This document shows positions 8,961-61,526 of a stretch of DNA of 64,000 nucleotides, piece by piece. Origin of the DNA: Eledone cirrhosa (Eukaryota); NCBI GenBank assembly GCA_964016885.1, contig OZ024759.1:20584001-20648000 (forward strand), in the 5' to 3' direction. Numbering within the stretch: the first letter of the stretch is position 1; the number at the start of each line of letters is the position of its first letter. The notes below the pieces were generated by a model. The model was not told the DNA's origin. It ran no database searches and saw only the letters and a list, made by a program, of their open reading frames with translations. Position numbers and translations under genes: made by a program.

Positions 8961-10047
8961 AGGCACATGGCTTAGTGGTTAGGCATTGGGCTTGCATTGC
9001 TCCAGTTTACTCAGCTGGAGAAATGAGATAATAGGACTGGGGTCCCTATCATTCCACTGCAAAGTGGTCGTGGAGGTGCCACGGCAAAAAAAGCACCCAG
9101 CCCACACTGTGATGTGGTCGTGGAGGTGCCACGGCAAAAAAAGCACCCAGCACTCACTGTGATGTGGACGTGTAGGCGCCACGGAAAAAAGCACCCAGCC
9201 CACACTGTGATGTGGACGTGTAGGCGCCACGGAAAAAAGCACCCAGCCCACACTGTGATGTGGACGTGTAGGCGCCACGGAAAAAAGCACCCAGCACTCA
9301 CTGTGATGTGGACGTGTAGGCGCCACGGAAAAAAGCACCCAGCACTCACTGTGATGTGGACGTGTAGGCGCCACGGAAAAAAAGCACCCAGCACTCACTG
9401 TGATGTGGACGTGTAGGCGCCACGGAAAAAAGCACCCAGCCCACACTGTGATGTGGACGTGTAGGCGCCACGGAAAAAAGCACCCAGCCCACACTGTGAT
9501 GTGGACGTGTAGGCGCCACGGAAAAAAGCACCCAGCCCACACTGTGATGTGGACGTGTAGGCGCCACGGAAAAAAGCACCCAGCACTCACTGTGATGTGG
9601 ACGTGTAGGCGCCACGGAAAAAAGCACCCAGCACTCACTGTGATGTGGACGTGTAGGCGCCACGGAAAAAAAGCACCCAGCACTCACTGTGATGTGGACG
9701 TGTAGGCGCCACGGAAAAAAGCACCCAGCACTCACTGTGATGTGGACGTGTAAGCGCCACGGAAAAAAAGCACCCAGCACTCACTGTGATGTGGACGTGT
9801 AGGCGCCACGGAAAAAAGCACCCAGCACTCACTGTGATGTGGACGTGTAGGCGCCACGGAAAAAAAGCACCCAGCACTCACTGTGATGTGGACGTGTAGG
9901 CGCCACGGAAAAAAGCACCCAGCACTCACTGTAAATGAGGTTCATGTTAGGAAGGGCATCCAGCTGTAGAAATCAAGCCAGAATCAGTTCCTGTCCCACT
10001 CTTGGAAGCAGGGAAAAGCGGACGTAAAATGATGATGATGATGATGA
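8959..10047 (+). mobile_element. SINE family A with internal 48-bp minisatellite expansion
   Basis: Internally deleted head, about 17-18 copies of ggaaaaaagcacccagcactcactgtgatgtggacgtgtaggcgccac (about 9082-9930), short tail. Confidence 0.9.
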
Positions 10048-13346: not shown

Positions 13347-13826
13347 ATAGAATTAGAATTTAGCTTCGAGCATTGCTGTATACAGATATGTATTGGAATT
13401 TAGTATTTCTAAAGAAATACAGCATGTTTATGAATAAAAGTTTAGGAAGCCATAGCTAAATGTTTATTTATAGACATAGTGTATTTCTTTAGAAATACGC
13501 AATTCCATTACATATCTACATACAGCTATACTTGAAGCTAAATTTTAATTCTATTCTAAGTTGACCCAACTTATACAGCTTCATATGGAAATGAGATTAA
13601 TCACCTCATTTACACAGATGACAAAACTATATTCTCGCCTGTTTTCAAAGTCCTACAGTTGCAAGAGCGGAAGGGATTCAGTTTGAAATGTATCGACAAT
13701 TGTCCCCCTTGCTTCTGCTTGACACCACCAGGTGGTGATAGTTGCCTGTCTTTTTGCATAGCTATGGCTTTCTAAATGTTTATTTATAAACATACTGTAT
13801 TTCTTTCGAAATACGAAATTCTAATA
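13347..13826 (+). mobile_element. Decayed copy of the retrozyme-like element (period about 316 bp, 5' inversion, HHR core deleted)
   Basis: 13557-13640 closely matches 60702-60790; direct repeat at 13457 and 13773; 13347-13457 is an inverted copy. Confidence 0.7.
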
Positions 13827-14053: not shown

Positions 14054-14444
14054 ATATATATATGAAATATACATATAAGAAGTTCTCCATCTCTTTTAAC
14101 CTTTGAAAATCCTGAACCTTGTAAAACCGGTAAAGTAATGTTACTGTAATGAAAACCTTCTTAAAGACTCCAATTATATTTTCAACTTCTTCATTTGTAT
14201 GTATGTATATGTATATATGTATATGTTCATTTGTATGTATATAAATGTATATATATCACCACCCCACACTCTCAAGCGTGAAACTAAAAACCATATCATT
14301 TGTACTGCCTCTCTGTTTTTTGTTCTCTGTTCATTTATTAAACTATATATATATATTTATATATATATAAGTTGAAAAAAATGAAAACGAAATTTCATTT
14401 CTCACTCTTAGTATGGCACTTACTTAAATGTAGGCAGATGGGTA

Positions 14445-14489
14445 AACGGTGCTGATGATAGCTAACAAGCTTGAAACTAGTACATCGTT
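14445..14489 (+). ncRNA. Minimal type-I hammerhead ribozyme, fully paired
   Basis: aacggtg-CTGATGA-t agct aaca agct t-GAAA-ctag-TA-catcgtt; predicted cleavage after 14482. Confidence 0.85.
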
Positions 14490-14642
14490 CCTGTGTCAGT
14501 GTTGAACAAAAAGGTGACGTGGTTGCCTTAACACCGTATGGCATAAATTCAGGCTGTTCAGTTTGTTGACAAACGAACAAAGCGGCGTTATAATAAACGT
14601 CTGCTAAACTGATGCGTGCATATATGTATGTGTACCTGTATG

Positions 14643-14686
<44 letters not shown>

Positions 14687-14966
14687 TGCTACTGTACGTC
14701 TGTATACATATATGTATGTACGTATACATACATACTTACATTTATATATATATATATATATATACAACCCCTATTGAGTTCTCTCTGAATTTGGGTCTTT
14801 GTATTTATTATAATCTGCTAGATCAAGAGACTGTGGATCAAAAGGGTGTCTTTATCTGCTCACAACTGTATAGGCACCTAAGACCAATACTGAAGGAATA
14901 GAACACACACACTACTAAGTCATAGCCAGTTGTGAATGACAGCAGCAGTAGTATTATGTATATAGC

Positions 14967-20827: not shown

Positions 20828-22069
20828 CCAAGATAATTTCATAGAATGTAACCAAATGAGGTTTATTTTTCATCATAGTTCCCAAGATAATTTCATAGAA
20901 TGTAACCAAATGAAGTTTATTTTTCAACATAGTTCCCAAGATAATTTCATAGAATGTAACCAAATGAAGTTTATTTTTCATCATAGTTCCCAAGATAATT
21001 TCATAGAATGTAACCAAATGAGGTTTATTTTTCATCATAGTTCCCAAGATAATTTCATAGAATGTAACCAAATGAGGTTTATTTTTCATCATAGTTCCCA
21101 AGATAATTTCATAGAATGTAACCAAATGAGGTTTATTTTTCAACATAGTTCTCAAGATAATTTCATAGAATGTAACCAAATGAGGTTTATTTTTCAACAT
21201 AGTTCCCAAGATAATTTCATAGACTGTAACCAAATGAGGTTTATTTTTCATCATAGTTCCCAAGATAATTTCATAGAATGTAACCAAATGAAGTTTATTT
21301 TTCAACATAGTTCCCAAGATAATTTCATAGAATGTAACCAAATGAAGTTTATTTTTCATCATAGTTCCCAAGATAATTTCATAGAATGTAACCAAATGAG
21401 GTTTATTTTTCAACATAGTTCCCAAGATAATTTCATAGAATGTAACCAAATGAGGTTTATTTTTCATCATAGTTCCCAAGATAATTTCATAGAATGTAAC
21501 CAAATGAAGTTTATTTTTCAACATAGTTCCCAAGATAATTTCATAGAATGTAACCAAATGAGGTTTATTTTTCATCATAGTTCCCAAGATAATTTCATAG
21601 AATGTAACCAAATGAAGTTTATTTTTCAACATAGTTCCCAAGATAATTTCATAGAATGTAACCAAATGAGGTTTATTTTTCATCATAGTTCCCAAGATAA
21701 TTTCATAGAATGTAACCAAATGAAGTTTATTTTTCATCATAGTTCCCAAGATAATTTCATAGAATGTGACCAAATGAGGTTTATTTTTCATCATAGTTCC
21801 CAAGATAATTTCATAGAATGTAACCAAATGAGGTTTATTTTTCAACATAGTTCCCAAGATAATTTCATAGAATGTAACCAAATGAGGTTTATTTTTCATC
21901 ATAGTTCCCAAGATAATTTCATAGAATGTAACCAAATGAGGTTTATTTTTCATCATAGTTCCCAAGATAATTTCATAGAATGTAACCAAATGTTTATTTT
22001 TCATCATAGTTCCCAAGATAATTTCATAGAATGTGACCAAATGAGATTTATTTTTCAACATAGTTCCCA
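20828..22069. repeat. 54-bp minisatellite, about 23 copies
   Basis: ccaagataat at 20828, 20882 and onward; 18-aa periodic ORFs on both strands. Confidence 0.97.
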
Positions 22070-42706: not shown

Positions 42707-43445
42707 CATCATTATCATCCTCATCACCGTTTTACCTCCATTTTTCCACACTAGCATGGGTTAGACGAGTTGTCCTGTTATGAGTAATGCTAGATCCGGT
42801 GACCATGTCTTGCTCATACAGAACTGATTTTGCCTTGGTTCCTACAGCTGGATGCCCTTCCTAACACCATTTACAGTGTAGACTGGATGCTTTTTGTTGT
42901 GACACCCACATGACCACTTTACAGTGTAGACTGGGTGCTTTTTGTCGTGACACCTACACGACCACTTAACAGTGTAGACAAGGTGCTTTTTGTTGTGACA
43001 CCTACACGACCACTTTACAGTGTAGACTGAGTGTTTTTTGTCGTGACACCTACACGACCACTTTACAGTGTAGACTGGGTGCTTTTTGTCATGACACCTA
43101 CACGACCACTTTACAGTGTAGACTGGGTGTTTCTTGTCGTGACACCTACACGACCACTTTACATTGTAGACTGGGTGCTTTTTTGTCGTGACACCTACAC
43201 GACCACTTTACAGTGTAGACTGGGTGTTTCTTGTCGTGACACCTACACGACCACTTTACATTGTAGACTGGGTGCTTTTTTGTCGTGACACCTACACGAC
43301 CACTTTACAGTGTAGACTGGGTGTTTCTTGTTGTGACACCTACACGACCACTTTACAGTGTAGACTGGGTGCTTTTTGTCGTGATACCTACACGACCACT
43401 TTACAGTGTAGACTGGGTGCTTTTTGTCGTGACACCCACACAACC
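42707..43445 (-). mobile_element. RTE-UTR/SINE tail with an independent 48-bp minisatellite expansion (about 12 units)
   Basis: Unit ttacagtgtagactgggtgctttttgtcgtgacacctacacgaccact. Confidence 0.9.
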
Positions 43446-60195: not shown

Positions 60196-60730
60196 AAAAC
60201 TCCTTCAGGTACCTAGAAAGTTCCCTGGGCATGGTGCTTTTGTGGAAGACCATGCATACTGCTTTCCCTTCTCCATGCCGCTGATGTTGTCCAAGTGAAA
60301 AGCAAAGACTGAAATAACTTGGCATCAGTAATGTCACAACTCATTTCTATAGCTTAAACTGGAACCGATCTGAAAATCAAACTCACAACCTCTTCATATT
60401 GTGAAACCAACTCTCTAACCACTAAGCCACATGCCTTCACTGTGTGTGTGTATGCGTATCATCATCATCATTGTTTTACGTCCGTTCTTCCACGCTAGCA
60501 TGGGTTAAACGGGTTGTCCTGTTGTAAATGAGGTGATTAATCTCATTTGCATATGAAGCTGCATAAGTTGGCTCAACTTATAATAAAAAAGAAATAGTAT
60601 TTCGCTTCAAGCATAGCTTTATACAATTTTTTTGAGATACAAAATATTTATACAAATTGTATAAAGCTATGCTTGAAGCGAAATCCTATTTCTTTTTTAT
60701 TATAAGTTGAGCCAACTTATGCAGCTTCAT

Positions 60731-60779
60731 ATGCAAATGAGATTAATCACCTCATTTACACAGATGAGAAAAGTATATA
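60731..60779 (+). promoter_or_regulatory. Octamer ATGCAAAT, then TCACC (PSE-like) and TATATA: possible snRNA-type promoter
   Basis: Octamer 60731-60738, tcacc 60747, TATATA 60774-60779; spacing is not canonical and the region also forms hairpins. Confidence 0.35.
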
Positions 60780-60823
60780 TTCTCGCCTGTCTTCTAGTCC
60801 AGCAGTCGCAAGCGGTGGGAGGG

Positions 60824-60867
60824 ACTGTCCTGACGATGGCCAGTTAAGCCTGAAATGCATAGACGGT
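60824..60867 (+). ncRNA. Minimal type-I hammerhead ribozyme atop a long extended stem I (60797-60890)
   Basis: actgtc-CTGACGA-t ggc cagttaa gcc t-GAAA-tgca-TA-gacggt; outer pairs gtccagcag/ctgctggac and gcaag/cttgc. Confidence 0.88.
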
Positions 60868-61047
60868 TGTCCCCCTTGCCTCTGCTGGACATCACCAGAG
60901 GGCGTTAGCCCCCCCCCCACCCCTGGTGTTTGCATAGCTACCGCTTCCTAAAACCGTATTTCTTTGGAGATACGAAATATTTATACAAATTGTATAAAGC
61001 TATCCTTGAAGTGAAATCCTATTTCTTTTATATATATGTATATATAT

Positions 61048-61446
61048 ATTGGCCTTGCAATCGAAAGGTTGTGAGTTCAATTCTCGGACGGGGTGATGTG
61101 TTGTTTCCTTGAGCAAGACACTTTATTTCACATTGCCCCAGTTTATTCAGCTGTAGAAATGAGATGATATGGACTGGGGTCCCTATCATTCCACTGCAAA
61201 GTGGTCGTGGCGGTGCCACGGCAAAAAAGCACCCAGCCCACACTGTAAAGTGGGCGTGGAGGCGCCACAGAAAAAAAGCACCCAGCACTCACTGTAAATG
61301 AGGTTGGTGTCAGGAAGGGCATCCAGCTGTAGAAATCAAGCCAGAATCAGTTCCCGTATGAGCAAGACAAGGTCAGCCGACCGGACACTGCCCACAACAG
61401 GACAACCCGTCTAGCGTGGAAGAACGGATGTAAAACGGTGATGATG
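61048..61446 (+). mobile_element. SINE family A, 5'-truncated, long tail
   Basis: Match to 59451-59845. Confidence 0.9.
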
Positions 61447-61455
61447 ATATATATA

Positions 61456-61526
<71 letters not shown>

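What the first reader, a model, noticed from the sequence alone, without database searches (positions are those of the whole stretch)
60523..61030. Candidate retrozyme: 333-nt hairpin-rich monomer with an intact hammerhead and an octamer motif
Seen: a complete HHR (60824-60867) on a long stem (60797-60890). The unit is about 1.2 monomers long (direct repeat 60634/60967) with a 5' inverted segment. The rest of the monomer is a chain of hairpins: ataagttg/caacttat, aaatgag/ctcattt, gagaa/ttctc, accag/ctggt, gtatttc/gagatac, tttatacaa/ttgtataaa, and gcatagct/agctatgc across the monomer junction. There is no meaningful ORF and a perfect octamer ATGCAAAT lies upstream of the ribozyme. Known: animal retrozymes such as newt satellite 2 (about 330 nt, snRNA-type promoter) and Schistosoma Sm-alpha are HHR repeats processed to monomeric or circular RNA and thought to be mobilised by Penelope-like elements. 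Inference: this is such a system in a probable cephalopod. I do not know of one being described there, but I cannot check.
Basis: partly seen in the sequence, partly recalled or inferred. Interest (0 to 1): 0.9.

Follow-up and report, generated by a model that had tools for sequence, protein, structure and literature searches.

The report
Penelope-mobilised retrozyme with U6-like promoter
This is one of well over a thousand genomic copies of a 333-base non-coding repeat that carries a hammerhead ribozyme fold and a U6-like promoter motif; its insertion ends match those of Penelope-like retrotransposons, so it is likely pasted by their enzyme, probably from a circular RNA, though cleavage, transcription and the circle are untested.

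Summary
The 333-nt unit has a type I hammerhead fold (predicted cut after 60861) and is a dispersed family: 607 and 1,174 exact motif hits, controls 0. This copy has a U·U at the base of stem II and only one ribozyme, so it cannot release a monomer alone. In 151 loci, 215 of 255 arm 3' ends fall at two sites about 45 nt apart and run mostly into (TA)n. Two-armed inverted insertions carry one end of each kind in 60 of 63 classifiable cases. This is the Penelope 'tail' signature. Arms cross the predicted cut site (71 of 73) and often exceed one unit, and tandem units share haplotypes, which fits a circular template. The unit is not the terminal repeat of a coding element. The octamer is part of an octamer+TATA module like this genome's U6 and MRP promoters, but about 5 nt tighter. 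Three related ribozyme repeat families share the module (6,911 genome hits). The polymerase and the partner element are unidentified, and there are no RNA data. Verdict: a new member of the animal retrozymes, with unusually direct genomic evidence for Penelope-type mobilisation.

The parts
60523..60629 (-). Inverted 5' arm (unit positions about 21-127); its outer end is atypical and joins a SINE fragment through 3-4 nt of microhomology
60634..60966 (+). One full 333-nt unit (circularly permuted monomer)
60647..60665 (+). Hairpin whose loop (unit 21-24) is the family's 'short' 3' end, inferred first reverse-transcription start
60655..60700 (+). About 45-nt 'tail' between the two family ends; includes the unit's only run of 4 or more T (T6, 60693-60698)
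60730..60741 (+). Extended octamer TATGCAAATGAG; the same 12-mer lies at about -77 of this genome's RNase MRP gene and of one U6 gene
60773..60779 (+). GTATATA TATA-like box, 42 nt after the octamer start; U6 geometry predicts +1 at 60804, a 5'-end cluster hints at 60797
60797..60890 (+). Long stem carrying the ribozyme
60825..60866 (+). Type I hammerhead fold with a 2-bp palindromic stem III; predicted cut after 60861; U·U at the base of stem II in this copy
60967..61033 (+). Partial second unit ending at the tail end, followed by (TA)n
60458..60525 (-). Neighbour, not part of the element: 3' fragment of a tRNA-headed SINE
61048..61458 (+). Neighbour, not part of the element: 5'-clipped tRNA-headed SINE

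Best explanation
This is a multicopy non-coding hammerhead repeat whose insertions end at two fixed sites and target (TA)n; it is likely copied in trans by a Penelope-like RT/GIY-YIG protein, probably from a circular monomer RNA. Shown: unit, ribozyme fold, copy number, two ends 45 nt apart, one-of-each ends in inverted insertions, arms longer than a unit that cross the predicted cut site, and an octamer+TATA module shared with U6/MRP promoters and three sister families. Inferred: (1) the internal octamer+TATA drives transcription starting just upstream of the ribozyme (polymerase unresolved). (2) The few loci with a promoter plus two tandem ribozymes yield a monomer by double self-cleavage, likely helped by dimer pairing of the palindromic stem III, and a host ligase closes it. 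(3) A Penelope-like protein nicks both strands at (TA)n and primes reverse transcription internally, once at the hairpin loop and once at the tail end. This gives two divergent arms of variable length. (4) Copying round the circle regenerates tandem units and so new source loci. The window copy has one ribozyme and is likely a dead-end product.
For: 607 exact ribozyme-core hits and 1,174 downstream 26-mer hits, controls 0. 151 loci, 255 arms: 108 short ends, 107 tail ends, 40 other; 5' ends scattered. Of 94 divergent two-arm pairs, 60 were short+tail, 3 same-class and 31 had an atypical end (p 5e-15 on 60 of 63). (TA)n follows 152 of 215 such ends. This matches the tail described as present at only one end (PMC8557442 passages) and mapped to two internal RT starts (PMC11167929). 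In loci chosen by a downstream motif, 71 of 73 passes cross the cut site and none of 255 arms starts at unit 229. 98 of 255 arms exceed one unit. Tandem passes agree at subfamily sites in 100 of 164 variant-bearing comparisons, against 13,722 of 173,010 between loci. The one ~10-unit array found has a variant in 10 of 10 units that only 7 of 169 loci carry, so it is not the master. Hammerhead stems covary across three families (0 of 500 shuffles; 7 related rows). The genome holds RT+GIY-YIG ORFs ending in (TA)n. Promoter.
Against: There is no RNA evidence and no cleavage assay. Rfam hammerhead models do not match. No Penelope-like element sharing sequence with the unit was found in 50 loci examined, so the partner is unidentified, unlike the pLTR homology reported in Xenopus. 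In vitro, a Penelope element used uncleaved linear RNA and did not need its ribozyme, so a linear multimer template remains possible. Only 2 of 151 sampled loci have a promoter plus two ribozymes. Haplotype concordance is incomplete (64 of 164 discordant) and could partly reflect local duplication or conversion. Within-family variants show no compensatory changes, and several break predicted pairs. 8 of 9 Xenopus retrozymes tested did not cleave. Octamer-TATA spacing is 40-42 nt against 45-47 nt at U6/MRP, and T5-T6 runs inside the units would stop Pol III.
Confidence: 0.68

Rival explanations
1. Same element and same Penelope-type insertion, but the template is an uncleaved linear read-through transcript of dimer or trimer loci; the ribozyme and any circle are side products.
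For: Ribozyme mutants did not affect insertion in vitro and unprocessed RNA was the main substrate (PMC11167929). Loci with 2-2.7 units exist. The top 5'-end position is unit 164 (7 of 255), which could be a transcript start.
Against: Linear copying loses length each generation, yet insertions of about two units come from several different haplotypes, with unit-private differences typical of post-insertion decay. The long array is not the source. Three of the seven ends at 164 are explained by stem microhomology, and the other four are not significant.
Confidence: 0.24
2. The unit is the solo or truncated pseudo-LTR of a longer coding Penelope-like element.
For: It has the same end anatomy as Penelope-like elements. 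Xenopus retrozymes match pLTRs. Penelope ORF fragments lie in the flanks of 9 of 169 loci.
Against: Arms run head-to-tail into another unit or into an inversion, not into shared internal sequence. The 9 ORF fragments are of mixed families, distances and strands. No homology was found in 50 GIY-YIG loci; only 50 of 150 scored hits were examined.
Confidence: 0.05
3. A DNA-level satellite or palindromic repeat spread by recombination, with a chance or dead ribozyme-like motif.
For: Tandem arrays exist. No Rfam hit. Some hairpins coincide with DNA promoter palindromes.
Against: Fixed 3' ends, variable 5' ends, inversions and occasional 9-14-nt flanking duplications (8 of 148 loci against a permuted mean of 2.1, maximum 7) indicate target-primed reverse transcription. 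Stem covariation across families.
Confidence: 0.03

Closest known systems
Animal non-LTR retrozymes (coral, mussel Mytilus, axolotl; PMC7229834)
   Same: 150-450-nt low-GC repeats with a type I hammerhead, no ORF, self-paired fold, co-existing with Penelope-like elements. The axolotl HHR_Amex2 also has a U·U at the base of helix II and cleaves 22% as a monomer.
   Different: Mostly dispersed insertions of about one unit, often inverted. Fixed Penelope-type ends and an internal promoter are mapped here; that paper only names Penelope-like elements as a strong candidate. Cleavage and circles were shown there and are untested here.
Vertebrate retrozymes as non-autonomous Penelope sequences (bioRxiv 10.64898/2026.07.22.740005)
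   Same: Same proposed dependence on Penelope-like elements.
   Different: Its evidence is co-occurrence and pLTR homology; its main text has no 'tail', 'promoter', 'octamer', 'initiation' or 'mollusc'. Here the evidence is insertion mechanics, and no pLTR homology was found.
EN+ Penelope-like elements (Poseidon PAc, Neptune; PMC11167929, PMC8557442)
   Same: Partial tandems, inverted 5'-truncated arm, tail at one end only, AT-rich or microsatellite targets, two internal RT starts, one in a stem-loop.
   Different: No ORF; tail about 45 nt rather than 30-40; the whole element is one 333-nt unit.
Newt satellite 2 and Schistosoma Sm-alpha
   Same: About 330-nt hammerhead repeat with a weak palindromic helix III and an internal promoter upstream of the ribozyme.
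   Different: Newt transcripts appear to be Pol II and Schistosoma Pol III (review passage). The octamer+PSE layout in newt is recalled; those papers were not held. Here the module is octamer+TATA, resembling the host's U6/MRP promoters.

Membership tests
Animal non-LTR retrozyme | Type I hammerhead motif in a 150-450-nt repeat | tested here: met
   no Rfam hit
Animal non-LTR retrozyme | Head-to-tail copies with two or more ribozymes | tested here: met
   12 of 151 sampled loci, 17 of 18 multimer-selected loci, one ~10-unit array; not met by the window copy itself
Animal non-LTR retrozyme | No ORF; no LTR-flanked internal region | tested here: met
Animal non-LTR retrozyme | Stable self-paired monomer fold | tested here: met
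   z -4.9 and -5.9; no within-family compensation
Animal non-LTR retrozyme | Self-cleavage | not testable with these tools
   needs an in vitro assay
Animal non-LTR retrozyme | Unit-length linear and circular RNA in vivo | not testable with these tools
   no RNA holder listed
Penelope-mobilised sequence | Two fixed 3' ends bounding a tail; tail at one end of inverted insertions | tested here: met
   215 of 255 arms; 60 of 63 classifiable pairs
Penelope-mobilised sequence | Identified autonomous partner with shared terminal sequence | tested here: inconclusive
   none in 50 loci examined of 150 scored and 10,595 candidate GIY-YIG hits
Autonomous Penelope-like element | RT + GIY-YIG ORF linked to the repeat | tested here: not met
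U6-type (Pol III type 3) promoter | Same upstream element and TATA as host U6/MRP genes | tested here: met
U6-type (Pol III type 3) promoter | Same spacing between the elements (45-47 nt) | tested here: not met
   42, 41 and 40 nt in families A, B, D
U6-type (Pol III type 3) promoter | Transcription by Pol III | not testable with these tools
   needs inhibitor or ChIP data

The most novel reading that the evidence does not exclude
This genome hosts a radiation of at least four retrozyme families that co-opted the host's U6/MRP octamer+TATA module at altered spacing so that transcription runs through T-tracts. Their circles are copied by a dimeric Penelope protein, each subunit priming at one end of the tail on the same RNA. 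That would explain the one-short, one-tailed rule and arrays of up to 30 near-identical units laid down in single insertions.
Probability: 0.3. Interest if true: 0.8.

Novelty: new member of a known kind. Interest (0 to 1): 0.55.

Why it matters
Which enzyme mobilises animal retrozymes, and whether the circle is the template, are proposed but not shown in the papers read. This family carries the Penelope initiation signature in hundreds of dated insertions and defines a 333-nt RNA with two mapped start sites, which is a ready substrate for the existing in vitro Penelope assay. The 60-of-63 pairing rule constrains how Penelope proteins prime the two target strands. The shared promoter module explains how a unit that is cut by its ribozyme keeps its own expression. 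As a by-product, it outlines the U6/MRP promoter of this animal.

Tried and rejected
Rfam scans: no hammerhead match; the miRNA hits come from the inverted repeat and are below gathering score. Sequencing runs: no RNA holder listed; two runs of unrecorded type laid as contigs said nothing about expression or ends. Search for the autonomous partner: BLAST and nhmmer against 50 GIY-YIG loci found only neighbouring retrozyme copies. The ~10-unit array as master locus: rejected. Linear self-cleaved monomer as main template: rejected, 2 of 73 passes stop within 10 nt of the cut, both at inversion junctions, against a mean hazard of 84 in 1,965; that sample left out loci already taken by exact ribozyme match, which favours finding such stops. 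Within-family covariation: uninformative at 95% identity. Ribozyme-intactness rate in the downstream-selected set: biased by that exclusion, not used. Apparent 5'-end peaks at unit 286-292: poly-C alignment artefact. U1/U2-type promoter: no proximal octamer in the 8 of 12 U1 and 5 of 20 U2 loci printed. Earlier-findings look-ups were empty. The primary newt and Schistosoma papers were not held. The supplement of PMC7229834 was unreadable and bioRxiv supplements are closed; either could list cephalopod elements.

Full report
Observation. The window holds a 333-nt unit (60634-60966), a partial second unit ending at 61033 in (TA)n, and an inverted arm at 60523-60629. The unit contains a type I hammerhead fold: stem I 60825-29/60862-66, CUGACGA, a short stem II, GAAA and a 2-bp palindromic stem III, with the predicted cut after A60861. 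Rfam does not detect it. In this copy the first pair of stem II is U·U; 185 of 217 family passes have A there and 28 have T. Family B has the U·U in all three rows aligned, and an axolotl ribozyme with that mismatch cleaves 22% as a monomer (PMC7229834), so the mismatch need not be fatal. Across seven sequences from three families, 6 of 11 pairs show two-sided changes and 0 of 500 shuffles reach the covariation score; the rows are related and family C is misaligned in stem III. The monomer folds well beyond shuffles and has no ORF over 59 aa.

Family. A DNA search gave 2,402 candidates, 40 scored. Exact patterns gave 607 hits (ribozyme core) and 1,174 hits (downstream 26-mer), with reversed controls at 0. 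With 51 of 110 passes keeping the 26-mer and about 1.7 passes per locus, I estimate roughly 1,500-3,000 loci. The 30 best copies average 95.7% pairwise identity. I mapped 151 loci: 30 best hits, 65 chosen by the core pattern and 56 chosen by the downstream pattern. The two pattern-chosen sets are all from contig C1, and duplicate loci were dropped.

Ends. Of 255 arms, 108 end at unit 12-35 (mode 21-24, the loop of a hairpin), 107 end at unit 55-72 (mode 67, just past the only T6 run), and 40 end elsewhere; 5' ends are scattered. (TA)n follows 152 of the 215 clustered ends. Of 94 divergent two-armed insertions, 60 have one end of each class, 3 have two of the same class, and 31 have an atypical end. 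The window copy is one of the atypical ones: its left arm stops at unit 127 against a SINE fragment. Craig et al. describe partial tandems, an inverted truncated copy and a tail often at only one end for Penelope-like elements (PMC8557442, passages). Frangieh et al. show that the tail is the sequence between two internal reverse-transcription starts, one in a stem-loop (PMC11167929, main text). That the two ends here are such starts is inference from this match.

Not a terminal repeat. Arms run into another unit or an inversion. Penelope ORF fragments lie in 9 of 169 flanks, in mixed families and orientations. The unit has no homology to 50 GIY-YIG loci. The genome does hold RT+GIY-YIG ORFs, two of them 938 and 636 aa with both domains, and one family ends in (TA)n at two sites. 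The partner remains unnamed.

Template. If self-cleaved linear monomers were copied, arms would stop at unit 229. None of 255 does, and 71 of 73 passes in the downstream-selected set cross the site. 98 of 255 arms exceed one unit. A multimer query found insertions of up to 2.66 units and one diverged ~10-unit array. Tandem passes within one insertion share subfamily variants in 100 of 164 comparisons, and inverted arms in 147 of 256, against 13,722 of 173,010 between loci. Insertions of about two units come from several haplotypes, and the array's own variant is in only 7 of 169 loci. Copying round a circular monomer explains all this most simply. Against it: uncleaved RNA was the in vitro substrate for a Penelope element, only 2 of 151 loci have a promoter plus two ribozymes, and local duplication could add to the concordance. 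I put the circle at about 0.7 given Penelope mobilisation.

Promoter. In this genome 12 of 20 fetched U6 loci have ATGC(A/T)AAT at -76 to -78 and GTATA(T/A)A at -31. Six array copies are interrupted by another repeat and two loci lack the element. The single RNase MRP gene has ATATGCAAATGAG at -77 and the TATA at -31; the best of six U6atac loci has a one-letter variant at -77. The U1 and U2 loci printed lack it. The unit has the same 13-mer as MRP followed by GTATATA, a pairing seen in 4 of 20,000 shuffles. Sister families B, C and D keep octamer, TATA-like box and ribozyme in the same order. A genome-wide pattern for this layout gives 6,911 hits against 0. The spacing, however, is 42, 41 and 40 nt in A, B and D against 45-47 nt at U6/MRP, and unit-length RNA must pass T5-T8 runs. 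Pol III would give a ~225-nt RNA ending at the tail end and would need read-through to make a circle. Octamer+TATA is also a classical Pol II layout (recalled). I leave the polymerase open, about even.

Literature. Retrozymes with circular RNAs are shown in coral, mussel and axolotl, and Penelope-like elements are named as candidate mobilisers (PMC7229834, parts 2-4 of 6 read; no 'octopus' or 'cephalopod' in its text; supplement unseen). A 2026 preprint argues the same from co-occurrence and pLTR homology in vertebrates (parts 1-3 of 5 read) without tail, promoter or initiation analysis. The giant squid genome paper lists 235 hammerhead-1 hits without analysis (passage). Searches for a cephalopod retrozyme, a non-autonomous Penelope family or this promoter link (listings only) found no description. 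The library lacks most subscription papers and Repbase. The animal's identity was not tested.

Verdict. The element is real and belongs to a known kind. What is new is the lineage, the mapped promoter module and direct insertion-level evidence for Penelope-type mobilisation. Self-cleavage, transcription and the circle remain predictions. Interest 0.55.

Noticed in passing
window 14367-14744: Two-armed inverted copy of sister family B (471-nt unit, 479 genome candidates, top hits 99% identical, a 10-unit run on C2).
   Followed up: partly
window 13509-13731: Older, 82-87% identical copy of the same family as the finding.
   Followed up: no
G000 C1:5,738,000-5,752,300 (L370, L371) and L372-L387: Young family D (466-nt unit, hammerhead with a G-C pair at the base of stem II, tail about 72 nt). 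One array shows 30 evenly spaced units bounded by one short and one tailed end; 11 of 12 hand-picked two-armed insertions follow the same rule.
   Followed up: partly
L122:1501-1560: Apparent chimera: a family B ribozyme 5' half joined to 22 nt of the family A ribozyme 3' half, suggesting a template switch between the two RNAs.
   Followed up: no
L111, L118, L119, L128, L133; L070, L073: Older hammerhead repeats with octamer-like words upstream of the core, mostly at about 90-110 nt.
   Followed up: partly
L311-L314, L331-L333, L351-L361: U1, U2 and U6 genes share a TTA(C/T)(C/T)TCCCTT-like word near -260; U1 and U2 share (T)CAGT near -56 instead of the octamer.
   Followed up: no
L061, L062, L072: RT+GIY-YIG family with a CxxxxCxxC linker (Neptune/Nematis-like), partial tandem, two ends about 63 nt apart into (TA)n, no canonical hammerhead found; a candidate partner.
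   Followed up: partly
window 9064-9932 and 42708-43408: 48-nt tandem arrays grown from the internal repeat of the tRNA-headed SINE.
   Followed up: no
window 20828-22069: 54-nt tandem array, 23 copies, 96% matches.
   Followed up: no
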